A DNA stretch of 64,000 nt, taken from the NCBI GenBank assembly GCA_043228905.1, contig JBHGNT010000002.1:20832001-20896000 (forward strand), written 5' to 3'. Below the pieces are notes generated by a model. The model was not told the DNA's origin. It saw only the letters and a list, made by a program, of their open reading frames with translations, and searched no databases. This document shows, piece after piece, positions 38,201 to 63,394 of this stretch. The translations under genes were made by a program, and so were the position numbers. Each line of letters opens with the position of its first letter. Positions within the stretch are counted from its first letter, which is position 1. The DNA comes from Azolla caroliniana. Taxonomy: Eukaryota; Plantae; Polypodiophyta.

Positions 38201-41200
38201 GGGAGAATACGTTGTCATTTTTCGACTTATAGTCGATGCTGCTTGTAGAGGAGAACCATGCTGGTGCGTCAACAAGTGCACCCACCGACAACCGGATGCT
38301 ATACACGGAGGCGGATCGGCCCCATGGGCGTGGTGGACGAGGCGGGTCAGCTCGTAATGGTAGCGGCCGGCAAGAGCAGGACCGAAGGCACAAAGAACGT
38401 GCCGACAGCAGTTCCGGACCCTCCACAAGCCGGGGAAGTCAAGGCGGTGCCGGAGGCTGGCAAGCAAAGGCCGACACGGAATGCTGGTACTGTGGAAAAA
38501 AGGGCCATAGAGAAAGCGAGTGCTGGAAGAAGTGTGCCGATTCGGACAAATCCGGATCTGGCAAGGCCGGTAGAGAGAACCGACAATACTCGCACTACGC
38601 AAAAGGATCGGGAGGATCCAAAACTGGAAAAGTCAGTAAAGGGCCAGCCTTGGTGATGAAACATGAGGCTAACTTGATGAAGAAGACCACTTCCAAATCG
38701 GAGGAAGTGTGGTATGTTGATTCCGGTGCGTCGAATCACATGACGAGCCACAAAGAGTGGTTCTCTTTCTTGGCGAAATCGGAACAACCGAGAGTCGTCG
38801 AAACCGGAGATGACACTCCTCACCCAATCGTGCATGTCGGAGAAGTCCCTTTGAGCCACGTTAGACAGAGGGGGAAACTGATGAACGTATTACACGTTTC
38901 GACTATCACGAAGAACCCGATGTCAGTTGATCAGATCGTTGACTAGGGGATGCAGGTGCGGTTTACGCACCTTGGGTGCTTCATCGAGGAAGAGGGCTAG
39001 ATTATTGCACAAGGGCACAGAGATGGGAGGATGTTCATCCTCGACACCAATGACGTCAGCACCGCTTTGTTCACCAAAGGACAGAAGATTGAATCGGATA
39101 TTGATCTTTGGCACAAGCGAATCGGCCAATCAATTACCGGAGGATTCAAGACCTGCAAACGAAACAAGTTGTTTTCGGTTTGCCGAGGTTTAGTGGCCAG
39201 AAGATCCAAATATGTGAAGCCTGCCAACTCGGAAAGCAACACCAGCTTCCATTCCCCACTGAACGAAACTGTAGCCATAACAAGCTCGAACTTATTCATT
39301 CGGATGTATGGGAACCGACAAAGAACGTTAGTCTTGACGGGAGTCGATACTTTGTCTCCTTCATCGACGACTACAGCCGAGCCGGCACATGTGGATCTAC
39401 CTCATCGAGAGGAAGAGCGAAGTCTTCAAGTGTTTCTGGAACCTTCAAAGCTTGGTTGAACAGGAAACGGAGAGGAAGATCAAGTGCCTGTGGTTGGATG
39501 GCGGGAAAGAATACTTTTCCGGCCAATTCAACAGTTATCTGCAACAGAATGGAATTCGGAGAGAATTCAGTTGCAAGTACACACCGGAGCAAAATGGTGT
39601 GGCCCAAAGGAAGAACCGGTCGGTTGTCGACGCGACAAGGGCAATGCTGGAGGAGAAGAGCATGCCCCATTTCTAATGGGCTAAGGTGGTCCGGACGACT
39701 ATCTATATCCAAAACCGGATTGGTGAGAAGGTGTCCGCACATGAGCTGTATTTCGGGCGCAAGCCGAATTTGAGACACCTTTGGATATTCGGTAGCATTG
39801 CATATGTGCATGTGCCGGATGAGAAGCGGAGGAAGTTGGATGCAAAGTCGGAGAAATGCATCCTGGTCGGTTACTCGCATGAGCAAAAGGGGTATAAGTG
39901 TTATAACCCCCGGACGAAGCAGGTCCAAATTAGCCGAGATGTTGAGTTTGATGAGACGACATCATGGTATGCCTTACCGACTTCGACCTCTGACCCTGAC
40001 CTAATACCGAAGGATGAGGATAGTGAGCCTGAAGCGGTCCAGTTAGAAGACGAAGGGTTTGAGACTCTAGATGTGAGTTCAGAATCATTTCAGTTGAGCG
40101 GCCTGAACGAGCGACTGGGTCAGACAGACCAGTCAGAAGATGAACCGGTGAGTAGTGGAGACTCTACCGTGGTCTCCCCACGCAAGGAACTGAGGAGACG
40201 GTTCACATGCAAAGAGAAGGGGAAGAAGAAGATGCTGGAATACGAAACCGGCAACATTGAGTTGGATCGGAGCGAATCCGACTCCGAAAAGGATGAAGGC
40301 GGATCTTTGGGAACGAAATCCGACTTGGCCAAGAAGGGCCTCAAACCGGGTAATACCAAGTTACGCCGGTCTTCCCGCCTAAGAACTCCGTTACGCGGTA
40401 CAGGTACAATGAGTACATGGCGCATCATTATGCGTTCATGACTAAGGTGGCAGAAGTGCATGAGCCGGAGAGCTACGCAGAAGCGGCAAAGGACGCAAAT
40501 TGGCGGTATGCTGGCTAAAGAAGTTGCTTTATGGCCTGAAGCAAGCCCCCCGAGCTTGAAATGCGAAGATGACGCACCGGTTGCGTAAGATGGGGTTTGC
40601 GGCCTCCAAGTTCGACTCTTCGTTGTTCATCCAGCAAGGTCCGGACGGTCCAGTTTGCATCTTGCTGTATGTTGATGATCTAGTCATCACCGAACCCGGA
40701 CTCGATGAAATCAGCTGAGTCAAGTCCCAGCTATTGGATGCATTTGAGATGAAGGACCTTGGGGACCTTCACTATTTCCTTGGGATCAAGGTGATCCGAT
40801 CCCCCGACGGCATATTGCTCTCACAAAGACACTATGTGTTGAATATGTTGTACAAGTTCGGCATGACGGAATGCCGACCAATCTCCACACCCATGGACCG
40901 GAACCTGAAGCTCCGTCCTGACTTCGGACCAGCATGCGATGAGAAGTGGTTCCGAAAAATCGTCGAAAGCCTTATATATTTGACAATCACCCGACCCGAC
41001 ATCAGTTATCCGGTCGACGTGATCAGCCAAAATATGTAGAAGGCGACCGTGGAGCACCTTCTGTGCGCGCATTGAATTTTGCGATATGTGAGTAGCACGA
41101 AGGACCGGGGACTGTTATACCGGCATGGTATAACCGATGAGCTTGTCGTCTACACCGATGCCGACTGGGCCGACGATGCATCGGATCGCCGATCCACCTC

Positions 41201-43377
41201 TGGCTATATTTTTTCCCTTGGTAGCGTTGTTGTTGCGTGGAGAAGCAAAAAGCATCCAACAGTGGCCCTTTGGCGCACTGAGGTTGAATACCGGGGTGCT
41301 ACCGTTGCCACTTGTGAAGCCATTTGGCTTCGGCGACTGCTGCAAGACTTGCGGATCGAGGTGCTGACCCCGATCCTGATCTACTGTGACAACATAAACA
41401 ACATGCAGTTGGCCAAGAACCCCGTATTCCATGTTCGCACAAAGCACATAGAAGTGCACTACCACTTTGTGCGTGAGCGTGTCCTGAGCGGTGAAGTTGA
41501 ACTTCGGTATGTTCATAAGGATCGGCAAGTTGCCTACATCTTCACCAAACCGCTCGGATCGGACAAGTTGCAGCACTTCACTGAAGTGCTTGGTGTTCAG
41601 CATCTCAACGTGCCACACTTGAGGGCGAGAACGGGCAAAGGCAAAGAAACTGCCGATTGCGCCGATGAGGGAAGAACCGACAAAGGGAGAGACAAGAAGA
41701 AGAAAGGAGCCGAGTCGACAAAGGAAGTTGACACATCCGAACAAGTCGGAACAAGCGGCAACGACGGTAGAGTCAAGAAGGACAGAGCCGACTGGAAGAA
41801 GAAGGCCAAGAGCTGGACATGGTCCGATGTGGTGAAGGGCCTGGAATCGGAAGACGAATCGGAGACAACCGATTCGGTTCAACAGACGGATTCGGAAGAA
41901 CCAGATCAACTCAAGGCCAAGAGGACGAGAAGGCAGCGAAAGTCGACGCCAACACGAAGGAATCGGCGAATCGGCAAGTGACAAAGTTACAACAACGAGG
42001 GAGCTGAATTGGGCCTGTTGAGCAGACAAGCCGACCGAGGAGGTCGAGGTGCACATAATCGGAAGGGTCGCGGCAAACGGGACCGGACCGGACGAGGAGC
42101 GCGAGCGAGGCAGAGTGACTCTTGAAGGAGCCGAGTGGAAGGACTGACTGCCATGGAGACTGACACTACAATCTGACCTCAAGTTGAGCTTGAGGGGGAG
42201 TGTTGAGCGGCAAGCTCAACCGGATCCGGATCAGCTGAATAAGCCTAAGCCGGATTGGCATCCAGAAGGATGAGCGGGTGAGCTGGAGGGCTGGTTAGCC
42301 GGATCAAGCAGTAACCGGAAGCCTAGTAACAGCCTAGACTACTAGGTAGTTAATGTCTCGTAGTTAGTGTCAGAGGCTTGTGTGAGCATTGAAGTACACT
42401 GTACCTTTGTCAGTCATCTTAGGACTTGTATAAATAGTGTTGTTGAGTACGTTGTATTTACAGAGAATTTTACAGATTTGTTGATAATAGATTTAAGTTG
42501 TTCTGCTCTTTCTCTGTCTCTTCTACGTACCTTCTGTGTGTTAATCTCTCTCTCTCTCTCTCTCTCTCTGTTGCTATCCGGCTAAGCCGGTTGTCTAACG
42601 CTTCCGCACCTTTGTTTTTACAAAGGGCCTAAAACGGAAGACAAGTTGGAGACTACCAACTCAGACAAGAGCCGAAACGAATCGGGAGCGACCGATTCAA
42701 ACAAGAGCTAGAACGAATAAGAGGAAATCAATTTGGTTCAAGGTTCGGAGAAGCCGGATCAACTAAAGGCCAAGTGGACGAGAAGGCAGCGGAAGTCGAC
42801 ACCGATACAGAGGAACCGATGGATCGACAAGCGCCAGAGTCATAACATCGAAGGAGCTAAAATGGGCATGTTGAGCAGACAAGCTGACCAAGGAGGTCGA
42901 GGTGCACAGTATCGGACGGGTTGCGGGAAGCGGAAACGGACCGGACGAGGGGCGTGAGCAAGGCGGGAGGACGTCAGAAGGACCGGCTACTATAGACACT
43001 GACATCACGATCCGACCTCAAGTTGAGCTTGAGGGGGAGTGTTGAGCGAGCAAGCTCAACCGGATCTAGATCGGCTGAATAAGCCAAAGCCGGATCGGTG
43101 AGACGGATTCGAGCGAGACTCGGAAGCCTAGTAGTAGCCTAGACTACTAGGTAATCATTGTCTCGTAGTTAGTGTTAGTCGCTCGTATGAGCATTGAAGT
43201 ACATAGTACAGAGTCTTACTGAGTGTCATTTTGAATCTAACTTTACGTTTTGCTCTCTCTGTCTCTCCCACGTATACTCTCTGTGTATTTAGCTTCTCCA
43301 TTAAACCTTCATCTTATTCTCTGTTGCTATTCGGCTGAGCCGGTTTTGTCTAATGCTTCCGCACGTTTACATTCACA
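32290..43377 (+). mobile_element. Ty1/Copia element A (outer), decayed gag-pol 32763-37140, interrupted by element B
   Basis: LTRs 32290-32668 and 43040-43377; TSD GAAAA/GAAAA; PBS TGGTATCAGAGC at 32669; PPT GAGGGGGAG; [35 protein letters not shown] and SSTEAEY fragments with many stops. Confidence 0.95.
37150..42622 (+). mobile_element. Ty1/Copia element B nested in the 3' region of element A (same family, different LTR variant)
   Basis: LTRs 37150-37600 and 42201-42622; TSD AAGGG/AAGGG; PBS at 37601; decayed gag-pol 37693-41981; about 375-bp RT deletion at about 40505 relative to A. Confidence 0.95.
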
Positions 43378-43472
43378 GAAAATGAGGATACACCCACAAA
43401 CCTGACAACACCATATGTGGGCACCTAAAAACCGATGGGTAGGTACAATCAACATTGTGACTGTTGTTGTAC

Positions 43473-48315: not shown

Positions 48316-51300
48316 TGTGAATGTTAATGTGCGGAAGCGTCAGATAGAACCAACACAGCCAGATAGCAACAGAAAATGAGATAAAGGTTTAATGGAAAAG
48401 CTTCAAACACAAAGGAGACAGAGAGAGCATACAAAAAAATTAACTCTAAAACTCTTTGTGCATACAACGTGCTAAACAACACTATTTATACAAGTCCATA
48501 AAGGACTAACAGGTACTTCAATGCTCATACGTGCGACTAACACTAACTACGAGACAATGATTACCTAGTAGTCTAGGCTACTACTAGGCTTCCGGTTCCC
48601 GCTCGAATCCGGCTCCCCGATCCGGTCGGTTGTTTTCGAATACCATCCAGCTCATCCTTCCGGATGCCGATCCGACTCAGGCTTATTCAATCGATCCGGA
48701 TCCGGTTGATCTTGCTCGCTCAGCACTCCCCCTCAAGCTCAACTTGAGGTCGGATCGTGGTGTTAGTTGTTGTGAAATTGTTGTGGAATATAAATCACAA
48801 TGAACAGACACTGCTGAAATACGAATCACAGAAATATGCCAAGAAAAGACAAGATGAACAATGGTGCATAGAGATTTACATGGAAACCCTAAAACGGGGA
48901 AAACCACGGGTGGACAGAATCTTCACTATACAACGTGGATATACAACACCGAGAGGAATACAATACTCTGACGAGTGTATCAGCCGCACAGGGCTCTTCG
49001 CGTCTGTTGTTACTCACACAGCTATGGCGCGGCTCACACACACACACACACTCTCTTGCTCTCCTACACATTGTCCTTACAAACAGTTAAAGTTTGCCCT
49101 ATTTGCATATTTACTTACACAACTTTTCTAGCTATTTACATACGTAGCCCTCATGGGGCGCACACTTAGACTATTTACAAGTATAGTCTCCTGAGTTGGC
49201 TATTTACATGATTCCAGTTTCGGCCTCGGCCGAGTTCCTCATCAACTCGGCTCCTGTTTTCCGACTATTTGACTGTCGGCTTCCACTGCGTCCGTGTCCG
49301 CTTGACCTTTGGTTGATCCAGCTTCTCTGAATCTTGAACTGAATTGGTTTCCTTCGATTCATTCCAACTCTTGTCCGAGTCAGTGTTCTTCAACTCGTCT
49401 TCTGGTTTCATGCCCTTCACCACACCGGACCACGTCCGAGTCTTGGCCGTTTTCTTCTGGTCGGCTCTATCCTTCTTGACTCTGCAGCTGATGCCCCTTG
49501 TTCCAACCTTTTCGTATGTGCCAACTCCTTCGGTCGGCTCAACTTCCTTTTTCCTCTTGTCTCCCCTTTTGTTGGTTCTTCTTCCTCTCCGGCTCCTTGT
49601 CTGATGCCATCCGTTCCCTTTCCTTTTCTCCCCCTCAAGTGCGGCACGTCGAGATGCTGAACACCAAGCATTTCGGTGAAGTGCTAAACTTGTCCGATCC
49701 GAGCGGTTTGGTGAAGATATCGGCAATTTGCCGATCCGTCTGAACATACCGAAGTTCTACTTCACCGCTCAAAACCCGCTCACGCACAAAGTGATAGTGG
49801 ACTTCTATGTGCTTCGTCCGAGCATGGAACATGACATTCTTGGTGAGCTGAATGCTGCTCATGTTTTCATAATGGAGAAGGATCGGGGTCGGGACCTCAA
49901 ACCGCAGGTGTTACAGCAGTCGCGAAAGCCAGATGGCTTCACAGGTGGCATTGGTAGCGCCCCGATATTCAGCCTCAGTGCTCGACAAAGCCATTGTTGG
50001 CTGCTTTTTGTTGCTCCACACAACAACAACGCTACCTAGAGAAAACATGTAACCGGAGGTGGATCGGTGATCCGATGCATCACCGGCCTAGTCAACATCT
50101 ATATATCCGACTAGGTCTTTGGTTATACCATGCCGGTATAACAGTCCCCGGTCCTTCGTACTACTCACGTACCAAAGTATCCGGTGTGCGCACTAAAGGT
50201 GCTCGACGATCGGCTTCTACATGAACTGGCTGATCACTCCAACCGGGTAACTGAGGTCGACTTGAGTGATTGTCAAGTATATCAGGCTTCTGATGATTTG
50301 TCGGAACTGTTTCTCATCGCAGGCCGGTCTAGTGTTGGGACAAAGCTTCTGGTTCCGGTCCAGGGGTGTGGAGACAGGTTGGCACTCCGTCATACCAAAC
50401 TTGTACAACATATTCAACACATAGTGTCGTTGTGAGAGCAATATGCCGTCGGGGGTTTGGATCACCTCGATCCCAAGAAAATAATGAAGGTCCCCCAAAT
50501 GCATCCGACAATTGGGACTTTACTCGGCCGATTTCATTGAGTCCAGGTCCGGTGATGCCTAAATCATCAACATAAAGTAGGATGCAAACTGCACCGTCCG
50601 AACCTTGCCAGATGAACAACGACGAGTTGGATTTAGAGGTCACAAACCCCATCTTAAGCAACCGGTGCATGATCTTCGCATTCCAAGCTCGGGGGGCTTG
50701 TTTCAGACCGTAAAGCGACTTCTTGAGCCGGCACACCGCCGACTTGTTCATCTCCGACTCAAAACCGAGAGGTTGGATCATATAGACCCGTTCTTCAAGG
50801 TCACCTTGAAGAAATGCATTCTTCACGTCCATTTGGTGAAGATGCCATCCCCTTGTTGTAGCAACCACCAGTACCACACGAAGTGTCGTCATCTTCGCTA
50901 CCGGGTCGAAGGTCTCATCGTAATCGATTCCCTGGGTCTGTGCGTATCCCTTCGCCACTAACCGGGCCTTGTACCAGTTAACCAAACCGTTGGCATTGTA
51001 CTTTACCTTGTACACCCATTTGCAACCGATCGGTTTACAGTGTTGGGGAGGGTCAACGAGGTCCCATGTGTGGTTGGCACCTAGTGTCCGAATTTCTTCC
51101 TCCATAGTGGCACACCAATTTGTGTCCTTTGCCGCTTCTGCATAGCTCTCCGATTCACGCACTTCCGCCACCTTAGTCATGAGTGCATAATGATGCGCCA
51201 TCTACTCATTGTACCCGTACCGCGTAACAAGGTTCTTCAGGCGAGAAGACCGGCGTAACTTGGTATTACCCGGTTTGGGGCCCTTCTTGGCCAAGTCAGA

Positions 51301-53728
51301 CTTCGTTCCTGAAGATCCGCCTTCATCCTTTCCGGAGTCGAATTCGCTCTGATCCGACTCAACGTTGCCGGTTTCATATTCCAACATCTTCTTCTTCCCC
51401 TTCTCTTTGCGCGTGAACCTTCTCGTCGGTTCCTTGTGCGGGGAGAGCACGGCAGAGTCTCCACTACTTGCTAGTTCCTCATCTGACTGGTCATCCCGAC
51501 TCAGCCGCTCATTCGGTCCACTTAGCCGGAATGAGATCAGACTCTCTTTTAGAGTGTCGAAGTCTTCATCTTCTACTTGGACCACCTCGGGCTCACTAGC
51601 CTCATCTTCCAGAATCGGGTCTTCGTCGGGAGTTGGAGTCGGTAAGGAGTACCATGATGCCCTCTCATCAAACTCGATATCTCGGCTTACTCGAACTTGC
51701 TTAGTTCGGGGGTTATAACACTTATACCCCTTTTGCTGATACGAGTAACCGACTAGACTGCACTTCTCCGACTTCGGATCCAGCTTCCTCCGCTTCTCAT
51801 CCGGTACATGCAAATATGCTATGCTACTGAATATCCGAAGGTGTCTCAAATTCGGCTTGCGCCTGAAATACAGCTCGTGTGCTGACACCTTGTCACTGAT
51901 TCGGTTTTGGATGTAGACGGCCGTCCGGACCGCCTCAGCCTAGTAGAAATGGGGCATGCTCTTCTCCTCCAATATTGCGCTTGCCGCGTCGACAATCGAC
52001 CGGTTCTTCCTTTCGGCCACACCGTTTTCCTCCGGTGTGTACCTGCAGCTGAATTCTCTCCGAATTCTGTTTTGTTGTAGATAACTGTTGAATTGGCCGG
52101 AAAAGTATTCTTTCCCGCCATCCGACTGTAGGCACTTAATCTTCCTCTCTGTTTCCCGTTCAACCAAGCTTTGAAGGTTCCGGAAACACTCGAAGACTTC
52201 GCTCTTCCTCTCGATGAGGTAGATCCACATGTGCCGGCTGTAGTCGTTGATGAAGGAGAAGAAATACCGACTCCCACCAAGACTAACATTTTGTGCCGGT
52301 CCCCATACATCCGAATAGATTAAATCGAGCTTGTTATGGCTTCGGTTTCGATCGGTGGGGAATGGAAGCCGGTGTTGCTTCCCGAGTTGGTAGGATTCAC
52401 AAATTTCGGCCTTCTGGCCGCTAAATTTCGGCAAACCGAAAACGACTTATTTCGATTGCAAGTCTTGAAGCCTCCGATAATTAACGTGGCTGATCCGCTT
52501 GTGCCACAGGTCGATGTTCGATTCGACCTTCTTCCCTTTTGCAAACATAGCGGTGCCGACATCATTGTTGAGGATGAACATCCTCCTGTCTCGCCCTTGC
52601 GCAATTATCCGGCCCTCTTCCTCGATGAAGCACCCTAGGTGCGTAAACCGCACCTGCATCCCTTGGTCGACGATTTGTCCAACTGACACTAGGTTCTTTG
52701 TGATAGTCGGAACGTGTAGTACGTTCATGAGCTTCCCCTTTTGTCCGACATGGCTTAAAGGGACTTCTCCAACATGCACAATCGGGTGAGGGGTGTCGTC
52801 TCCGGTTTCGACAATCCCCGGTTGTTCCGATTTCTCCAAAAAAGAGAACCACTCTTCATGGCTCGTCATGTGGTTGGACGCTCCGGAATCAACGTACCAT
52901 ACTTCGTCCGATCTAGAAGTTGTCTTCTTCATCGAGTTAGCCTTGTGCTTCATCACGAAGGTTGGCCCTTTACCAAATTTCCCGATTCCGGATCCTTTTG
53001 ATCCTTCCGCGTAGTGCGAGCTTTGCTGGTTCTCCCGACTGGTTTTAGCGGATCCGGATTTGTCCGAATCAACGCGCTTCTTCCAACACTGGCTTTCCCT
53101 ATGGCCCATTTTGCCACAATACCAACATTCCGTGTCGGCCTTTCCTTGCCGGTTCCCGGCGCCGCTTTGACTCCCCCTGCTTGTGGAGGGTCCGGAACTG
53201 CTATTGACACACCCTTTGTGCCTCCAGTCTTGCTCTTATCGGCCGCCTCCATTGCGTGCTGACCCACCTCGTCCACCACGTTCATGGGGCTGATCTATCT
53301 TCGTGTACAACATCCGGTCATCCGATTGAGTGGTGCTTGACCCACTCGCGTGGTTTTCTTCGACCAAAATCATTGAATGCAAGTCGAAGAAGGACGGTGG
53401 TTTCTCCCAGGTGCAGATTGCTGTCTGGATTGGCCCGTACCTTTACGCTAGACCACTGAGGCAGATTTGTACTATCTTGTCTTCGTCTACCGTCATGTTG
53501 ATGGACCCGAGTGCATCGCAAATCTCCTTTATCTTGGTGGTGTAGTCCGTAACTTACATGTCTCTTTGCCAAATATTGTTCAGCTCTTGCCGGAGCTGCA
53601 ACTTACGAGCTATGGTACTTGCGGCGAAAATCTTCCATAGATTTTCCCAGACCTCCTTCGACGTCTTTGCATCCTTGATGTAGCTGAGCATTTGATCATG
53701 CACACCGGACGCGAGACAGTACAGTGCC
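48316..53728 (-). mobile_element. Ty1/Copia element C (family of A/B): 3' LTR 48316-48725 and decayed pol/gag, interrupted in gag at 53728
   Basis: ORFs 50329..51201 (RT), 51940..52434 (INT), 52447..53109 (PR) nearly match A/B; PPT next to 48726; flank GGTTC at 48311-48315. Confidence 0.93.
48768..49265 (-). mobile_element. Unrelated Copia-type LTR inserted in the 3' UTR of element C (about 200 bp of host missing)
   Basis: Starts TGTTG where homology to 43000 breaks; GGAAACCC...GGGGAAAACCACGGG motif; host homology resumes at about 49275; no clean TSD. Confidence 0.6.
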
Positions 53729-54539
53729 TGTTGTTGGGGTGGGGGGGTGAAGCCTAGAATGGCTTCACCCCCCTCTCAAGGGGGTTACAAGTGTGAGAGA
53801 GCTAGAGAGAAAGACAAATTGAAAGTGACACAAAATGAGAGGGGAAAAATGTATATTTCATTATGCCCCATGGGTGGGGTTTATATAGTACAAGAGGTAA
53901 TCGTTACAAATAAAGAATTTTATTAGGTACCCTCCGGTTTTGGAAATCTTATCTACTACCTTTGAGCTTCTAAATTCGATTGCGTGCCCTTGAGTTCTTG
54001 CAAATCTTCTCTACGTACCCTTCTCTTCTTTCATTTCCTATCTTCACCTTCTTTCCCTTGTCCTCTTTTCTTCTTCTCTGCGTCTGTCTTCTTCTTTTTC
54101 CTACGTCCTCTTTTCCCCTTCCTTTCCCTTGCTCTACGTCCGACTCTTCGTCGACTCGTTCGGCCTTATGTCCGCTATCTCCCTGTCAGCAGCCGGTTCG
54201 GCCGCTGATGTTCGGCGGCCAACTCTGTTGATGTCCGCTCTGTCGGACTTCGGCCCTCATCTTGTACCGGTTGCTCGATTACTGTCAGACACCGCTCGCG
54301 GTTGTCCGTTGTCTCTGCTGGTCGTAGCCGGCAGTTTGTTGGCTGCGATCGCCGGCCATTGTTGTCCATGGCCGTGTTTGTCCGGCGGCCATCTCTTTGT
54401 CTAGTCGCCTCTCTCGGCATACCTCTGTTTGGCTGTCTCTCGGCGCTCGGCTGACTCTCGGCTCCTGGCTGTCACTCGGTCGTACTCTTACTCTTGGGTA
54501 TCGTTTCTCGGCCATAACCTGGCCGTGCGTCTCTCGGTC

Positions 54540-54925
54540 GTACTCTTGGCTGCACGTTGAACGATGTTGCGAGCAGGTCCTTGTCGAAGCCAGATAATAC
54601 TGCATTAGTGTCTTTCCCAACAACTACAAAGAATCTATGGAATGATGTCTCTAGTAGCTGCGAGTGGTTGTCTTCTTCTGAGGAGGGAGAGGTGGAATGG
54701 GTGCGCGGAGCAGAGGATGTCAATATTTTTGTAATGGAAGACAGTGTCCCTCTCTATAGCGTAGCAATCTCCTTCCTCCATGTCCATCGCTTGGAGCTCG
54801 TTCCCATCAATCCATGAGAACCGGCCTCTTCCTTTGTAGACCACAAATAGTGGATCTGTGTTTGTGTATTGGGCTACGCGGAAGTGCACGCATTTCTCCT
54901 GCCTATGTCTTGATGACTAGGAGAC
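54540..54925 (-). pseudogene. Vicilin-like (7S globulin / cupin) gene fragment without introns
   Basis: VIKT*AGEMRAL; QYTNTDPLFVVYKGRGRFSWIDGNELQAMDMEEGDCYAIERDTVF; FHRFFVVVGKDTNAVLSGFDKDLLATSFNV. Confidence 0.8.
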
Positions 54926-55052
54926 ATAACTTTGGTTGAGTAGTTATTGATCGAACTCCTGAAGACCAGATGCACATCTGAGATTTGGGATCTGAATGAC
55001 TGCCATGGAAGCTCTCGCTGCTGTTGTGTCCACTTCCTCTCATGGATTTATT

Positions 55053-55582
55053 TAAAGTTTCAACTGAAACAATCTCATCTTCAATGGTCATCATGATCTG
55101 CAACTTCTTCTTTTATTTTATTTTATTCCATAACGAATAGCTACAAGCTTTGATGCCCCCCCAATGAAGACCAGGCATGGTAACACTCTGAACTGATTCC
55201 TCGAGTTTTGCCATTTAGTTTCATCATCCCATGGCTTCACATCCAAGAGAACAGAGGACTTGCCACTCTCTTTCTTTCTTCGTACTAGCTTTCTTCTCAG
55301 CTTCACATTCAGCTACAACTTTCTTTTCCTCTTCAGTTTCTTCCCAGAGAGATCCAGATCATCATCATCTGCTTCCTTGGTAGCCTTTGCAGCTGGGGCA
55401 ACATCACAAACAGGGACAGGCACTCCCGTAATGTTAACATCAACAAGGGCTCCTGGTAGAGATTTCTTTAGTAATGCAAAGATGTGGTTGTACCAATGTG
55501 ATACATTCACTAAATAACTCTTGGGTGGCTGAGAAGAAGCAAGATATACCAGCAAGTCATCTTTTGAGGCCTAATACCCGGA
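55053..55582 (-). pseudogene. EF1B: Processed fragment of translation elongation factor 1B beta/delta
   Basis: SGY*ASKDDLLVY...VNVSHWYNHI...ADDDDLDL/EETEEEKK...KKESGKSSVLLDVKPWDDET/MAKLEESVQSV.MPGL...GASKLV...YGIK...LQIMMTIEDEIVSVETL; contiguous with frameshifts, no introns. Confidence 0.92.
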
Positions 55583-56300
55583 GCTCTTCTCATCTACAAC
55601 CTTGCCCGGGTGGCCACCTCTATTTGCATCGCACAAACAGACTTTTAGGAGATGATTTTAGGGTTGTCATAGAGGGTCTCTCATAGGAAATGGGTGATGA
55701 AATGTACTATTTCCTATTGTGGGTTTTGGCAAAGATTAGGGTTTGTTGCGGTGGGTTTTAATAAGGATCGGAGTTTATGCAAAGAATCTGGGGGCTTGAT
55801 GAAGTGGGCTACAAGCAGAAATAAAGATTTCCAGTAGAAATTAGAGTTTCCTTGTGATGTGGGTGATCATAGGGGATGTGCAAGAGAGAAAATGCAGAGA
55901 ATCATCTTATATCATGCACCCTACACACACATACAGAACACATACATGCAGACGCAAAGAGGGAGAGATAGAGATTAGTGATGGATAGACTTCCTCTCAA
56001 GGGAGGGTTGTCCCATCAAGCGTGCCAAAAGTGTTGTTGGGGTGGGGGGGTGAAGCCTAGAATGGCTTCAACCCCCTCCCAAGGGGGTTACGAGTGTGAG
56101 AGAGCTAGAGAGAAAGACAAATTGAAAGTGACACAAAATGAGAGGGGGAAAATGTATATTTCATTGTGCCCCATGAGTGGGGTTTATATAGTACAAGAGG
56201 TAACCATTACAAATAAAGAACGAGACAAGTAGGGAGTTACATTGCTTACCCACTTTCTCACCTTTGTACACATGCACACAAATATGCATGTGTTCATACA

Positions 56301-59300
56301 TGAAAAGAATGGCGTGCGGAAGCAATATAGGAAATCCGAACAACAGAAAACGCAGGTTTAATGGAAAGCTTAGGTTTGCACGGTACGCACGGGAGAGACA
56401 GAGAGAGAGTAAACATTAGAACTTAATTCAAAAAGATAATACTCAATCTGTACATAGGATGTGCTCAGTCAGCACTTTTATACAAGCCCTGACAACTAGG
56501 CTGACACAAGTACTGACAATACTTGACTGCTCATAAATGAGCCTCGACTCTTATTCCCAAAACTATTCCTTACGAGGAATAATTTTCTAACAGCCTTTCG
56601 GTTTACGCACCGATACGACCTTCCTACGCACCGGTTTGCGTACCGGCTTACGCATCCGTTTTACGCACCGGTCCGGCCTAACCGATCGGTCCCAACCGAT
56701 CTGGTCCTCGGCTTGCTCAGCCGATCGGGCCAATGTTGAGCTTGTCTCTCAACACTCCCTCTCAAGCTCAACTTGAGGCTCTTCGGGATCTTCTGGATCA
56801 CCGCTCCAGTTCCACTTGGCTCCACACCTCGCTCGCGCTCTTCGGCCTGTTCGACTCCGCGCGCTTCGACCATTCCGGTCGGTACGGCCCTTCACAACTC
56901 CCTTGTTGTCGCGGTGTTGGCGCTTCTCATGCTGCCTTCTTTTCCGCTTGGCCCTTGATTGATTCAGTGTATCCGAATCAAACATTCGAACCGACTCGGC
57001 TACTGCGATCCGTTTTCACTCTCATGCGAGTTGGTTGTCTCCAACTTGTCTTCGGTCTTCTCACCCTTGACGACATCATGTCCCCCATGCTTGGTTGGCT
57101 CTGGCGCTTTCTTTCGGCTGCTCCCCTTGTGGTCGCTATTGGACTCTTCCACGGATCCGCCCTCGGCTTCTTCAACTGAACCAAAATCAAATTCGTCATC
57201 TGACTCGACGTCGCGGTCTTCTCGCTCTCTCCCCCTTCCGTCGGCGTCTTCTCTCCCCCTCAAGTTCGGCACGTCGAGGTGACGCAACCCAAATGCACCC
57301 GAGAATTGCCGCAACTTGTCCAGTCCAAGAGGCTTGGTGAAGATGTCGGCGGTCTGCCGATCTGTCGGAACATACTGAAGTTTGACTTCACCAGAAAGGG
57401 CACGCTCACGGACAAAATGGTAGTGCACCTCAATGTGCTTGGTCCGTGCATGGTAAACGGGGTTCTTCGCGAGCTGGATGCTACTGAGGTTGTCGTAGTA
57501 GATCGTAGTCGGATCGGACACCTCCACCTGCAGATCCTTAAGTAGCCGCTTCAACCATATGGCTTCGCATGTCGCGACAACTGCTCCTCGGTACTCAGCT
57601 TCGGTGCTCAATAGTGCAACTATCGGCTGCTTCTTACTACTCCACGCTATTGCGGCACTCCCAAGAGAGAACGCGTATCCAGACGTGGATTGGCGATCGG
57701 CGACGTTGCCGGCCCAGTCGGCATCGGTGTAGCCGACCAACTGTGGGGTTGTACCGGTCCGATATAGCAGTCCCCGGTCCTTAGTGCCGATTACGTACCG
57801 CAATACGTGTTGTGCACACTGAAGGTGCTCCTCAGTAGGTCGCGCCATGAATTGACTGATCACCCCGACCAGATAACTGAGGTCGGGTCGGGTGATTGTC
57901 AAGTAGATAAGGCTTCCGACAATCTGTCGGAACCTCGTCGGGTCGTATACCTTGCCGGAATTGGGGCGAAGCTTGACGGTTCTATCAAGAGGAGTCGAGA
58001 CGGACTTATAGTCTGCCATCCCGAATTTGAAGAGCATATTCAATGCGTAATGACGTTGGCTGATCAGTATGCCTTCGGGGGTGCGAATCAATTCGATCCC
58101 GAGGAAGTAATGAAGGTTCCCCAGATCCTTCAAGTCGAATGATACCACAAGTTGGAGCTTCACGCGGTTGATTTCACCTAGGTCGGCGCCGGTGATGACC
58201 ATGTCATCAACATAGAGTAAAATACTAACTGGCCCGAGTCGACCTTTCTGAACGAACAGTGAGGAGTCCGATTTTGATGTTGCAAAGCCCAACCGATGCA
58301 GACGATGCGTGATCTTCGCCTTCCAGGCATGCAGGGCTTGCTTCAGTCCGTAAAGGGACTTCTTCAATCGGCACACTGCCGACGTGTTTGCTCCGGAGTG
58401 AAATCCGGGGGGCGGTACCATGGACACTTGGTCCTCAAGCTCACCTTGCAGGAATGCATGCTTTACATCCATCTGATGTAACTGCCACCCCTTGGCCGCG
58501 GCTACCGTGAGCAAAACATGGACGATTGTCATCTTCGCGACCGGCGCAAACGCCTCATCGTAATCGATGCCGTGTTTCTGCGCATAGCCTTTTGCCACTA
58601 ACCGGGCCTTGTATCGGTTGACTGAGCCGTCCGTGTTGTACTTGACCTTGTACACCCACCTACATCCGATCGGCTTCACACCCTTCGGTGCGTCAACCAG
58701 GTCCCAACTCTCGTTTTCCGCCAATGCATGCATCTCTTCCTCCATCGCGGCGCGCCAATTCGCGTCCTTCGCCGCTTCTGCATAGCTCTCTGGCTCATGC
58801 ACTTCCGCTAGACGCCGTGCTGGAATCCGACACCTTCTTCTTCCCTTTCTCTTTGCACGTAAGCCGTCTCCTCGGCTTCCTACGCAGGGAATGCACGACC
58901 GAGTCTCCACTACTCGCCGGCTCTTCATCGGACTGGTCATACCGACCCAGTCGTTCATTCGGTCCACTTAACCGAAATGAAATCGGACTCTCTTCGCGGG
59001 TCCCGATTTCAGGCTCATCCGGAGACATCTCAGCCTCGCTGACCTCATCGTCAAAACTTGGATTGGAAGTGAGGTCCGGAGTTGGAGGCAAGTACCAGGA
59101 CGCGGACTCATCAAACACAACGTCGCGGCTCACGCGCGCTTGTTTGGTGCGCGGGTTATAACACTTATAACCCTTCTGCTCGTCCAAATAGCTGACCAAG
59201 ATACATTTCTCGGCCTTTGCGTCCAGCTTCCTCCATTTTTCCTTCGGCACATGCACATACGCAATGCTACCGAAAACTCGTAAGTGTCGCAAGTTCGGCT

Positions 59301-59373
59301 TCGTTCCGAAATATAGCTCGTGCGCAGTAGAACTTGGGCAAGCTCTTCTCCTCCAACATTGCCCGTGCAACAT
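56301..59373 (-). mobile_element. Ty1/Copia element D (related subfamily): 3' LTR 56301-56754, open RT-RNase H, deleted and truncated integrase
   Basis: LTR starts TGTTGAGAGACAAGCTCAAC on the minus strand after a PPT; ORF 57000..58967 has [27 protein letters not shown] and TEAEY; ARAMLEEKSLPKFY at about 59330-59373. Confidence 0.9.
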
Positions 59374-59374
59374 C

Positions 59375-60030
59375 TGCTGAATCCGGTGCTCCGAGTCCAG
59401 GTGTTTTGCTTACTCTTTCGGCTTCAATATTGTCTAACTCGACAGATGTATCGACATCATGCTTGTCGAATTCTTGCATGATTCGGTTAATTTCTTCTCT
59501 GAAATAAGCCACCATGTCGTATAGGTCTCTAGCAATATTTTCCTGAACCGTGGTCATTGCTTCCTCCGACACTTGAGGAAGCCTTTGCCTTGAACTTTTC
59601 TATTTTCTCTGTCGGCTTGTAATAACTGAAGCTCTGCACCTTGCGCTGACCATGTTTGCCAACCCTTCTCCAACGATTCATTGACCAATTTTAGGGTGTT
59701 AAGCCGGTGGTGTCTTATGATTGCTTGAACCCTGTCCTGAGTCATTCTTGCCTCAAACTGTGCTGTTGCCAATGTTCTTCGCAAATCTATGATTACTGCA
59801 TTGGTATCTCCTTCGGCCTGCATCAGTTTGGCTTGTGCCACTAAGAGGTCAAGTCGCCTTTTCTCAGAAACCGTTTGAACTTCTACACATCGGTTTTCCA
59901 GCTTCTCTTTCTCCGCATTCCAGTTGTTCTGCTGCTGAATCATTTTTCCGTTGATTTCTTCTATCAGTTTGTCTCTTGTAGTCAACTGTTTTGTAAAACA
60001 AGTCTCTTGGCTGCTTACATACTCTTCCAG
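59375..60030 (-). other. Unassigned coiled-coil-like coding stretch (two overlapping frames)
   Basis: Parts of ORFs 59554..60204 and 59267..59572 are E/K/Q/L-rich and helical-looking; no recognisable domain. Confidence 0.4.
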
Positions 60031-62928
60031 TTCCCACGCACACACTCGGACGACACAGAGAACGCATAGTGGAGCCTCTATTGGAGCACACGGGCTTACA
60101 CGCAGCAGAGGCAATCGACACAGAAACGTAGTGGAAAGCAATGGTTGAGGAGGAGAGAGCTTGGTCCCCAATCCGACAACACTTCGTCCTCGCCAAAAAC
60201 GCAATATCTTCTTCTTCTTCTCCCCTCCCTTTTATAGGTCGCCGAGGAGGCCGTTACATCCAAACACATCAACTTTAGTCTCTGTCCTTTCGGACCGAGA
60301 TACGCATGGATTCCCTAGACAATTAATACCCTTCCTAGTACATATGTACATCAGCCTATCTATTCCTAGATATGTACAATTCGTAAACACACACACACAC
60401 ACGCGCGAAAAGGATTGGGTCACACCTCCTCCCTTCGATTCCTCCTAGGGGCTGTTTTCTCCACGACATCCACCCCCACCAAACCACACGTCCACCGGTA
60501 CGTGCCAGGTAGGAACAACCTTGGGAAAAACCGGCCCTAGATCAATCATCGCTTTTTGAACCCTCGCCTTCCTTGATTCGGGGATCGCCGCCGCCATCGC
60601 TCACCGAGTCCGGTTCGTCGTCGTGCCGCTTCTTGAACATCTTCACCCTCTTGTTAGCCACCGGTACCGCTATCCGCGTCCCATCGAGGTCCGCGAGATG
60701 ATACGTACCGTTGTGGTTCGTGCTTGTTACCGTGTAGGGCCCGAACCATCTCCTCGCAAACTTACGCACCGTCTTGTGCTGATTATTGAGGCTACTGTTG
60801 TACACCAACACGCAGTCGCCTTCCTCGATCTTCTTCGGTCTCAACCGGTGTGTTCGGTCGAACCGGCCTTTGTTCCTTTCACGTGCCGTACGTAGCTTCG
60901 CCATCGCCTGCTCCACGTTCTCCGGTCGTCGCTCGAGTTGCCGAATCCGCGCCGCAAGCAACTCTTGCCGACTCATCTCATCCTTCCAGTCCACCGTGAC
61001 CCATGAAGTGATCATCCCTTCCACTGGCATAATCGGTTTTTGCCTGAACATCAACTCCGCTGGCATGAACCCTGTCACCAAACTGTGCGTAGTCTGGTCC
61101 GCACACAACGCGTAGGCTAGAAGCCGCGGCCAATTCCCGACTTGCCCTTCACACGCTCATACTAAAGCCTTCACGATCGGTCCCTGTCCGCGTTCTACCT
61201 TCCCGTTCGCCTCCGGGTTGTACGCCGTAGTGAGGGAGAGCTTGACCCCTAATTGGTCGAACAACTCCTCAGCTTCCTGCGCGTCTAGCTCTCCCCGATC
61301 CGCCACGATTTTCCCTACTCATCTATACCGACACACTACCTCTTCGATCAGGAACTGGCATACCGCCGCAGTCATCTTGTTCGTCAATGCGCGGCCTTCC
61401 ACTTGGTTCGTTAAATCTTCCCGCGCAAGCACCAGATACCGCATCTGCCCTACTCCCATCAACATCGTCACTAAGTCCACCATCCATTTGAAGTGGATGG
61501 TCGGCGGGTAGGTTGGGTGTAGCTCGTCTCGATGCCGGATCACGGAGTGCATCTGACAGTTTTCACACGTCGTCACCAACTGGTACACATCTCGGTACAG
61601 CCCCAACCACCAATACTTCTCTTTCAGTTTCTCAAATGTGGCCCAGGTCCCATGGTGTCCGGCCCAAGGACTCTCATGGTACGCCATTAACAACTTGTCG
61701 TGCTCGTCCTTTCTCGCCACTATGCGGAGTGGAACGCCGCCTCGCTTCTTTGGGGGCCTCCATATGTTCCCATCCCGTAGGAAGAACCAGTAAGCTTTCT
61801 TTCGGATCCGGTTAGCCTCTTCCTTCGTCCATGCTGCGTCTGGTGTCATTGTCTTCAGGAACCTACCGATCTGGAGCCACTCCCCATCATACTCGCCTTC
61901 GTGAAATTCGTTAAGCGCCGGAGGGCTCCTCTCCCTCGTTATGTATGCCATCTTGAAGAAGTCTATGCCGACTTGTCCTTGTCGTCGAACCGTGCTCTCG
62001 AAAGCATGTCGGCCATGGCGTTGTCCTTCCTGGAGATGTGCCATATCTCCAGATTTAGGGACTTGATGTACGCGATCCACTTGAGCATTGCCAGGTTCGG
62101 AGTCGCGCATAACGAGAATCGGTAGGTAGTCCGTCTCGATTTTTACTTCCGTCCCTATAAGATAATCTTTGTCGGCCTTAACCGCCGAAACGATACCCCA
62201 TAGTTCGCACTTAACTTGGGCATATCCTCGCTGTCACTCACTGAGAACCTTCGCCCCAAATCGGACCTGGAACCGCTCGTCACTCTCGTCCTCTTGATTG
62301 ATCACCCATCCGATTCCGGTCGGGCTTGTGTCAACGGTTACGTAGATGGGGACCTCCTTGCCGTAGACCGCCTTCCTGAGAGCCGGTGCTGCGGTAAGCG
62401 CCTCGTTCAGTCTCCGGACCGACTCCGTATGCTCCTTGCCCCATTCAAATTTGCGCCCCTTCTTCAGCAACCCGTAAGGTGGTTCCGCGACGTGTGCGTA
62501 GTGTGGAATCCAAATGTGGTAAAATGCGCACAGACCCAAGAACCTCTGCACTTCCGTAACCGACTTGCACTCTTCCTTCATTACGGAGATGGCTTCTATC
62601 TTTGCTGGAGACGGTTTCCGGCTGTAGGGACCGCACAGGTGACCGACCACTAGGATCTCTGATTGGCCGAATGCCGATTTCTCCCTAGAGAAGGTGAGCT
62701 GCGCGTCCTCTAGCCTTTGTAGCACCTTCTCGCAGCCATTAATGTGGTCCGCTACGAACCTCCGGCATCCGTCTGGCCCAACTGCCTCGTCCTTATCCTC
62801 CACCGGACATCCTTTGATCAGGATGTCATCTAGGAATGGCATGGTGATGTCCGGGATGCAGTCCCTCAACACCTTGTTCATCGCATTCAACATGTGCGCC
62901 ACCGAGTTCATCCCTCCTTGCGGCAGGG
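60030..62928 (-). mobile_element. Ty3/Gypsy 3' half (RT-RH-INT-GPY/F, PPT, 3' LTR starting at 60468), fungal/bryophyte-like lineage
   Basis: TLPQGGMNSVAH...PFLDD; VDTSPTGIGW; H...WAGHHG...CENC; LAREDLTNQVEGRAL; RRWFGPY; PPT GGTGGGGGTGGA then TGTCGTGG; distal LTR end unresolved. Confidence 0.88.
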
Positions 62929-63394
62929 TGTCAGAACCAAGGATAAAAGATAGAGTGATGGAAGAAGGATATTAGAGAACACGAGAAGAAAGGAACCAAA
63001 TACTAAGAGAAGAATGGATGTATAAGATAGAGAAAGAAAGAGAATGGATACAAGATATATAATGAGAGCTAAAGATTGGTGTTGATTCGAATTGATTTGA
63101 GAATACATGTATGCCCTTATTTATAGGTTCCTATAGAATAGCTTAGAGATTTCTAGAATGTTCTAGAATGTTCTAGACCTAGAATGCTCTAGGACATTCT
63201 AGAACATTCTAGAATAATCTAGAGTTTTTACAATAATCAATGTAATACAAGAAGTAGCTTTTATTGTTTCATATAACAATAAACTATCTTAATGGTTGAA
63301 GTTTTCAAGTATGGATTACAAGGTTCGAGGTTCAAGTCCGGGTGACGCCATAAATGGTCATGTGTTCATGACATTATCCCTCCTTCGAGAACGC
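62929..63394 (-). mobile_element. 3' LTR (62929-63373) plus PPT of another retroelement inserted into the Gypsy RT
   Basis: TGTCA...TGACA perfect terminal inverted repeat; minus-strand GAAGGAGGGATAA directly precedes it; CTATAAATAA and TTCTAGAA repeats inside. Confidence 0.8.

What the first reader, a model, noticed from the sequence alone, without database searches (positions are those of the whole stretch)
53729..56300. Non-autonomous LTR element that has captured spliced eEF1B and vicilin mRNA fragments in tandem
Seen: between two LTR ends and after a PBS lie an intronless eEF1B fragment (55582-55053), about 130 bp of unrelated sequence and a vicilin/cupin fragment (54925-54540), all sense to the element, with no gag/pol. 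Known: plant eEF1B genes have introns; maize Bs1 is the precedent for LTR capture of several mRNAs; TGGCACGC is a tRNA-Arg-type PBS used by Tat/Ogre elements; vicilins are seed and fern-spore storage proteins. Inference: template switching onto abundant co-packaged transcripts, implying activity in sporogenous tissue. Copies could yield siRNAs against the parent genes.
Basis: partly seen in the sequence, partly recalled or inferred. Interest (0 to 1): 0.8.

Follow-up and report, generated by a model that had tools for sequence, protein, structure and literature searches.

The report
Fern retroelement carrying rotated eEF1B mRNA
A decayed jumping gene, likely from a fern, carries intron-free pieces of two host messenger RNAs, and one of them (eEF1B) has its back part placed before its front part with the two ends meeting almost exactly, likely because the element's copying enzyme ran once around a single mRNA; capture of mRNAs by such elements is known, the rotated form is rarer.

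Summary
Largely real, with one correction that changes the story. On the minus strand lie an LTR end, a tRNA-Arg-type PBS, a leader, eEF1B codons 29-209, then not 'unrelated' DNA but the eEF1B 5' UTR plus codons 1-29, a vicilin fragment, a copia-like non-coding piece and a 189-bp LTR end. An RNA contig shows the parent mRNA in normal order; the copy is circularly permuted, its two ends overlapping by 4 nt (CTCC). Three GT-AG introns of a 90%-identical genomic eEF1B gene are precisely missing. The permutation joint is mid-exon, so not a canonical back-splice. Diverged sister copies (88-89%) share the cargo joints. Best model: template-switch capture by an LTR reverse transcriptase that looped once round one mRNA, then a few re-transpositions. 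Not shown: TSD, a complete LTR pair (right U3 missing, left cut by a copia), sporogenous activity, siRNAs. Multi-mRNA capture is known (Bs1); rotated cargo is known from mouse circRNA pseudogenes, and this scan found similar one-turn cargo before in animal genomes. I found no plant case in nine searches.

The parts
56301..56752 (-). 3' LTR of a neighbouring copia element (A) inserted into the element's left LTR; not part of the element
   Evidence: aligns with other copia LTRs of the window and ends in ...TTTTCA at 56301; loose ends at 56299 read into a copia PBS, loose ends at 56300 show the element family's LTR going on
56032..56300 (-). Left LTR, 3' 269 bp only (end of U3, TATA at 56190, R-U5, ends ...CAACA)
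   Evidence: family contigs continue past 56300 (14 contigs in X3, 35 in X4)
56010..56027 (-). Primer-binding site, 4 nt after the LTR, tRNA-Arg type
   Evidence: a 14-of-18 pattern made from it hit 120 viral loci, and the only tRNA among them (1 of 120) is tRNA-Arg(TCT) ending exactly at the match
55584..56009 (-). Leader, likely the native 5' internal region of the LTR family; its last 60 bp could be vicilin 5' sequence but the test was not significant
   Evidence: low-depth RNA contigs match it at about 82-86% (records 13, 14); CpG o/e 0.27 like the LTR; vicilin-profile score P = 0.30
55052..55583 (-). eEF1B mRNA copy, codons 29-209, three introns missing and exon1/exon2 joint kept; starts with CTCC (55583-55580); frameshifts and stops
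55051..55051 (-). Permutation joint: codon 209 (mid-exon) joined to the 5' UTR through a shared TAA with one extra A
   Evidence: RNA loose ends at 55052 and 55030; L016 sequence at 1489-1500
54920..55050 (-). eEF1B 5' UTR (about 44 nt) plus codons 1-29 (ATG at 55006), ending in the same CTCC (54923-54920)
   Evidence: tblastn E 7e-6; RNA contig joint 'goes back 660', 4 letters fit both sides
54557..54919 (-). Vicilin (7S cupin) mRNA fragment, VIKT...ATSF, two internal deletions, two introns inferred lost
53918..54550 (-). Segment Y: CpG-rich, purine-rich non-coding DNA resembling the 3' untranslated region of the local copia family; likely a third captured or recombined retroelement piece
   Evidence: CpG o/e 1.13, trinucleotide correlation 0.79-0.84 with copia 3' regions against -0.2 to -0.4 with the element's own LTR and leader; 3-4 other contigs at 86-91%
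53729..53917 (-). Right LTR end (TATA region, R-U5), U3 upstream of 53917 missing
   Evidence: family contigs leave at 53918 into the left-LTR-type U3
48316..53728 (-). Host copia element (C) whose gag abuts the right LTR end (GGCAC...); its 5' half is not in the window

Best explanation
This is a decayed, few-copy, likely non-autonomous gypsy-type LTR element carrying spliced fragments of host eEF1B and vicilin mRNAs, with the eEF1B copy circularly permuted, likely because the element's reverse transcriptase made one full turn around a single eEF1B mRNA. Shown: the order of the pieces, the intron loss, the 4-nt end overlap, the mid-exon joint, the lack of poly(A), sister copies with the same joints. 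Inferred steps, in the order of minus-strand synthesis: (1) RT left the element RNA, copied segment Y and then part of a co-packaged vicilin mRNA; (2) it switched at CTCC onto eEF1B mRNA at codon 29 and copied into the 5' UTR, RNase H destroying that stretch behind it; (3) it jumped at TAA to codon 209 of the same molecule and copied back until the template ended at its own RNase H scar at codon 29; (4) that forced a switch, again at CTCC, to the element leader. The chimera then re-transposed a few times in trans and decayed; this copy landed in a copia gag, lost most of its right U3 and was hit by another copia.
For: Parent mRNA is collinear and the copy permuted, both ends sharing 4 letters (RNA contig 11, depth 586, 45 substitutions over 55579-55052 and 9 over 54996-54920). 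Three GT-AG introns of L016 (90.4% over 355 exon nt) are absent to the base, and a DNA contig shows the parent's first intron 2 nt from CTCC while the copy keeps that splice joint. Two independent switches would meet within 0-6 nt about 1 time in 100 on a 700-nt mRNA (rough figure). No A-tail after either fragment. Sister contigs 88-89% alike bridge leader/eEF1B (X4 record 29) and eEF1B/vicilin (X4 record 28) with more than 31 nt each side; X1 joints link vicilin to eEF1B exon 1, eEF1B to leader, and vicilin to Y in other copies; P0003 shares both vicilin deletions. Short shared sequence at switch points, multi-gene cargo and secondary retroposition are the published signature (PMC5131818); switches at breaks in the RNA and within one molecule are documented for retroviral RT (PMC3187697).
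Against: No TSD and no complete LTR pair: the right LTR lacks U3, a sister Y contig leaves the window sequence at 53918, and the 5' half of the host copia is missing, so the two LTR ends may come from two insertions joined by a deletion (about 30%). No sister is seen in full or with its own LTRs; tables showed 32 of over 14,000 laid pieces and 8 of 180. The 5' UTR piece starts about 100 nt inside the mRNA, so the jump was not a run-off from the cap. No contig is shown to bridge the 55051 joint with 31 nt each side. A pre-made circle gives the same sequence. Y does not look like this family's own DNA.
Confidence: 0.58

Rival explanations
1. A pre-made circle (a non-canonical circular RNA of eEF1B, or a circular cDNA closed at TAA) was copied once round by the element's RT, or recombined in by one crossover at CTCC, into an element that already held leader-vicilin.
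For: Explains permutation and 4-nt duplication equally well; circRNA pseudogenes in mouse have LTR-rich flanks and no poly(A) (PMC4897178).
Against: The joint is mid-exon with no GT after codon 209, so not a canonical back-splice; RNA contig 11 runs on normally at 55052; no leader-vicilin 'empty' joint among the 10 joints of X1; leader as vicilin 5' part not significant (P = 0.30).
Confidence: 0.2
2. The cargo was assembled at the DNA level: cDNA or retrocopy pieces were used as filler in repair of a break inside a resident LTR element, and the sisters arose by segmental duplication, not by retrotransposition.
For: Region is full of deletions and nested insertions; right U3 and host copia 5' half missing; Y is foreign to the family; each sister has its own deletions.
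Against: All pieces are sense to the PBS; ends of the permuted piece meet within 4 nt; the right LTR end joins copia gag cleanly, as an integrase joint would; the LTR pair (4.2%) is no more diverged than most sister pieces (4-12%).
Confidence: 0.14
3. Two separate switches onto two eEF1B mRNA molecules gave the two pieces, and their ends meet by chance or because CTCC next to the first exon joint is a switch hot spot.
For: eEF1B mRNA is abundant (RNA contig depth 586 against about 4 for vicilin-like contigs; one run, a poor measure); Tan et al. saw switches recur near exon-exon joints; the break is 2-6 nt from an exon joint.
Against: Chance of abutting about 1 in 100 without a hot spot.
Confidence: 0.08

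Closest known systems
LTR-mediated retrocopies, including maize Bs1 (Tan et al. 2016, PMC5131818; passages and section 5 read; the Bs1 paper itself was not held)
   Same: Partial intronless mRNA pieces from more than one gene in place of the internal ORFs, no poly(A), short shared sequence at joints, a few copies sharing switch points.
   Different: One gene is present as a permuted, nearly gap-free turn ('permut' 0 hits in that paper's main text; its supplements not read); cargo here is decayed, not an ORF; likely fern; LTR pair damaged.
circRNA-derived pseudogenes (Dong et al. 2016, PMC4897178; part 1 of 2 read)
   Same: Non-colinear spliced copy, no poly(A), LTR sequence in the flanks, several copies.
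   Different: Joint is mid-exon to 5' UTR, not exon-to-exon back-splice. The paper itself notes that non-colinear pseudogenes can also arise by reverse transcription across linear RNAs whose ends lie close (its Figure S1D, not seen).
OTA/Tat gypsy lineages with tRNA-Arg PBS, Ogre (89%) and TatIII (64%) (Neumann et al. 2019, PMC6317226; passages and two supplement rows)
   Same: tRNA-Arg-type PBS a few bases after an LTR ending in CA.
   Different: No pol is left, so the lineage cannot be assigned; earlier scan notes describe tRNA-Arg gypsy families in this genome without Tat assignment (unchecked).
TE gene capture in plants generally (review PMC13317346; gymnosperm survey PMC13477047; passages)
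   Same: Captured fragments inside LTR elements are common (1343 in sorghum LTR elements per the review; 13.68% of host TEs hold two or more fragments per the survey), and siRNA conflict with donor genes is described.
   Different: The review has 0 hits for 'fern' and 'permut'; neither passage set describes a rotated mRNA.

Membership tests
LTR-mediated retrocopy (Tan 2016 / Bs1 type) | Partial, intronless mRNA-derived cargo | tested here: met
   3 of 3 introns of L016 within the aligned span missing to the base, intron 1 joint spliced; two vicilin introns inferred lost from read-through proteins
LTR-mediated retrocopy (Tan 2016 / Bs1 type) | Cargo replaces internal ORFs between LTR sequences of one family, after a PBS | tested here: met
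LTR-mediated retrocopy (Tan 2016 / Bs1 type) | Short shared sequence at switch points | tested here: inconclusive
   CTCC at both eEF1B ends and TAA at the inner joint; partner templates (native leader, vicilin mRNA, Y source) not in hand, so sharing is not shown for the outer joints
LTR-mediated retrocopy (Tan 2016 / Bs1 type) | No poly(A) tail on cargo | tested here: met
LTR-mediated retrocopy (Tan 2016 / Bs1 type) | Complete 5' and 3' LTRs with a TSD | tested here: inconclusive
   left LTR cut by copia at 56300, its 5' part not found in the window; right LTR lacks U3; right end joins gag cleanly
LTR-mediated retrocopy (Tan 2016 / Bs1 type) | Further copies sharing the switch points | tested here: met
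   X4 records 28, 29; X1 joints; P0003
LTR-mediated retrocopy (Tan 2016 / Bs1 type) | Copies dispersed at separate insertion sites | not testable with these tools
   no whole genome held; contigs are a few hundred bases
circRNA-derived pseudogene (Dong 2016) | Non-colinear order of spliced sequence | tested here: met
circRNA-derived pseudogene (Dong 2016) | Joint is an exon-exon back-splice | tested here: not met
   codon-209 end lies inside the exon that starts at L016 1407 and is not followed by GT
circRNA-derived pseudogene (Dong 2016) | The circular RNA exists in the species | not testable with these tools
   only assembled contigs of one RNA run laid
LINE-made processed pseudogene | 3' poly(A) tail with own longer TSD | tested here: not met
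   both fragments are 3'-truncated without A-run; only a 4-nt duplication
OTA / Tat / Ogre gypsy lineage | tRNA-Arg PBS | tested here: met
   (14 of 18 bases, against one viral tRNA-Arg(TCT); the host tRNA was not available)
OTA / Tat / Ogre gypsy lineage | RT phylogeny, aRH domain, 5-bp TSD | not testable with these tools
   no pol in the element; autonomous partner not found

The most novel reading that the evidence does not exclude
Plant LTR reverse transcriptase can capture a host mRNA by one full turn around a single molecule, stopping at its own RNase H scar, so that linear mRNAs are fixed in genomes as circularly permuted copies without any back-spliced circular RNA. With the animal cases noted by this scan, this would be a general capture mode that mimics circRNA pseudogenes and could supply circularly permuted coding sequence.
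Probability: 0.5. Interest if true: 0.65.

Novelty: new variant of a known kind. Interest (0 to 1): 0.45.

Why it matters
As a two-gene capture it is one more Bs1-like element, of note only for being in a likely fern. The rotated eEF1B copy matters more: its ends record how the reverse transcriptase moved between templates, it gives a plant example for the open question of how non-colinear pseudogenes form, and it warns that such copies can be miscalled as circRNA fossils or give false back-splice reads. It makes a countable prediction: captured cargo in giant plant genomes should include an excess of permuted pieces whose ends overlap by only a few bases. The cargo itself is dead (stops, frameshifts), so no new protein is expected.

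Tried and rejected
No whole genome is held, so no genome-wide count or TSD survey. The search for homologous proteins found nothing for the vicilin frame (0 of 32 candidates); the full HMMER scan did (8 hits, 6 vicilin-like, 2 repeat proteins set aside as chance). No RNA holder was listed for the internal region; this says nothing about expression. 4 of 15 runs were laid and 1 of 15; summed contig depth is no true copy number. Leader end as vicilin 5' part (eEF1B wedged into vicilin): best frame scores 0.1 against a null of -1.8 +/- 4.1, P = 0.30; left open. Inverted second PBS, as noted for other gypsy families of this genome: best 18-mer in the element has 7 mismatches; the region where it would sit may be deleted. 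No clear polypurine tract at the right LTR (purine runs lie 100-210 nt upstream). Upstream part of the left LTR: not in the window (1 match, 1.8 expected). LTR-PBS 31-mer: 0 hits in metagenome contigs. Rfam: two matches at E 0.36 and 0.51, chance. The Y frame: no Pfam match; the Atlas look-up did not run. Dating by LTR divergence rejected: 8 of 189 is lower than 11.5% sister divergence (P = 4e-4) but not than 7% (P = 0.08), CpG content differs between regions, and the LTRs may not be a pair. No paper on tissue expression of this vicilin type.

Full report
Setting. The window is plant DNA, likely a fern: the nearest named relatives of the two cargo genes are Ceratopteris eEF1B and Adiantum and Matteuccia vicilins. 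From 32 kb on it is a nest of copia and gypsy elements. No whole genome is held, so copy evidence comes from short-read contigs of public runs.

Anatomy, minus strand. A copia 3' LTR ends at 56301. Contigs of the element's own LTR family run on past 56300 into other sequence (14 contigs in X3, 35 in X4), so the copia sits inside this element's left LTR. Then: left LTR remnant 56300-56032, four bases, PBS 56027-56010, leader to 55584, cargo 55583-54557, segment Y 54550-53918, LTR end 53917-53729, and at once copia gag. The LTR ends differ at 8 of 189 sites and share nothing clear upstream. At 53918 family LTR contigs continue with the left-type U3, and a sister Y contig leaves the window sequence at the same base; so the right LTR has lost U3 at a joint that may be private to this copy. 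Summed depth in X1 is 148-485 over internal bins against about 44 for a contig identical to the window, and 2e4-8e4 over the LTR-end bins, which also catch copia: a high-copy LTR family with a cargo-bearing subgroup of roughly 3-10 copies, parents included; the tool warns that such depth is no true copy number.

The main correction. tblastn puts eEF1B residues 29-209 at 55582-55053 and residues 1-29 at 55006-54920, downstream of them. An RNA contig of the same species label (X14, RNA by guess; 712 nt, depth 586) reads 54996-54920 and goes straight on at 55579-55052; the tool lists a joint that 'goes back 660' with 4 letters fitting both sides. So the parent mRNA is collinear and the genomic copy is rotated, with CTCC at both ends (55583-55580, 54923-54920). 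RNA loose ends show the coding sequence going on normally at 55052 and a 5' UTR that resembles the window up to 55050 (8-nt exact match, a 6-nt gap) and reaches about 100 nt further. The inner joint thus links codon 209 to the middle of the 5' UTR through a shared TAA plus one A.

Spliced origin. A genomic eEF1B gene from a metagenome contig (L016, 1 of 17 loci) is 90.4% identical over 355 aligned exon bases and has GT-AG introns of about 164, 216 and 88 nt; all three are missing from the window to the base. The same three intron places, and the first intron after ...YITG, are seen in other plant genes (L013, L017). A DNA contig in X1 joins 55578 to 54920 with unknown letters between, which I read as the parent's first intron, 2 nt from CTCC; the window keeps that splice joint. 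Codon 209 lies inside an exon with no GT after it, which rules out a canonical back-splice. For vicilin, proteins called on genomic contigs start to match at GRG and stop after SFH (P0004, P0005, P0006, P0009), the places where the window reads through; intron loss there is inferred, not aligned at DNA level. Neither fragment has an A-tail.

Sisters. Contigs 88-89% alike bridge leader/eEF1B (55508-55706) and vicilin/eEF1B-5' (54772-55029) in X4. In X1, joints link vicilin to eEF1B exon 1, eEF1B to leader, and Y to vicilin, each with its own deletion (10 joints listed). P0003, from an unnamed ENA contig, is 84% identical to the vicilin frame and shares both deletions. For the inner joint at 55051 the evidence is indirect: six contigs with parent-type letters at 55031-55032 and at 55065 lie up to 41 and 33 letters from their ends. 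No sister is seen whole.

Mechanism. Minus-strand synthesis runs Y, vicilin, eEF1B 29 to 5' UTR, eEF1B 209 to 29, leader. That the second pass ends where the first began is what a single template gives if RNase H has removed the part already copied; a break in the RNA then forces the switch (forced copy choice and intramolecular switches, PMC3187697 passages). Two independent switches would meet within 0-6 nt about once in 100. A pre-made non-canonical circle gives the same sequence and is the main rival. A DNA-level origin is weaker but not excluded, given the damaged LTRs. I tested whether eEF1B is wedged into a continuous vicilin copy: not significant (P = 0.30). Y looks like a copia 3' untranslated region by composition but has no blastn match in the window at E 1e-4.

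Known kinds. Multi-gene LTR capture with shared switch points is established (PMC5131818) and common in plants (PMC13317346, PMC13477047 passages). Non-colinear pseudogenes with LTR flanks are known in mouse, and that paper allows a linear-RNA route (PMC4897178). A tRNA-Arg PBS fits Ogre and TatIII (PMC6317226 supplement) and the pattern matched the end of a tRNA-Arg(TCT), but lineage needs pol. Nine searches (listings only, apart from the papers named) showed no permuted mRNA cargo in a plant LTR element and no fern case; subscription journals and the supplements of Tan and Dong were not seen and may hold such cases. This scan has unchecked notes on similar rotated cargo in skate, shark and an RTE-derived element; I had recorded the permutation before seeing them. 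That Matteuccia vicilin is a spore storage protein is recalled, not from a call.

Verdict. Real; a new variant of a known kind; interest 0.45. The capture is ordinary, the one-turn permutation is the part worth following.

Noticed in passing
L016:567-704: In this genomic eEF1B-like contig the exon ahead of the acidic region is replaced at its 5' side by a 46-codon frame that looks like a signal peptide plus an Ala/Pro-rich arabinogalactan-peptide stretch, in frame with the eEF1B 3' exons; no Pfam match of note. A chimeric gene or a low-coverage misassembly.
   Followed up: partly
window 55583-55578 and 54557-54551: Two cargo ends lie within about 6 nt of an exon joint of their gene (eEF1B intron 1; vicilin after ...AFN, inferred from P0012), echoing the exon-joint bias reported for one Drosophila element. 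Two of about six ends; not significant.
   Followed up: partly
window 54310-54608: A run labelled as another organism (X4) holds a contig with only 4 substitutions and 3 gap letters over this stretch, so this very copy may be shared between two species labels.
   Followed up: no
window 32321-43380: Copia elements in tandem on the plus strand, about 4.95 kb apart, apparently sharing LTRs, with a further short LTR-bounded unit at 42600-43380.
   Followed up: no
window 59370-62950 (-): Copia A breaks off at about 59370 into a coiled-coil-like reading frame (about 59500-59980) and a gypsy RT-RH-INT remnant with an LTR near 60020-60420 (read by eye).
   Followed up: no
window 20860-21400: Degenerate 27/39/42-bp repeat array with strong GC skew; the minus strand would code a Ser/Thr-rich, mucin-like repeat.
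   Followed up: no
window 55217-55334, 55016, 55030: The RNA run holds a second eEF1B form (depth 355) and two different 5' UTRs, so the species has at least two eEF1B genes or alleles; the copy follows the form that matches to 55030.
   Followed up: partly
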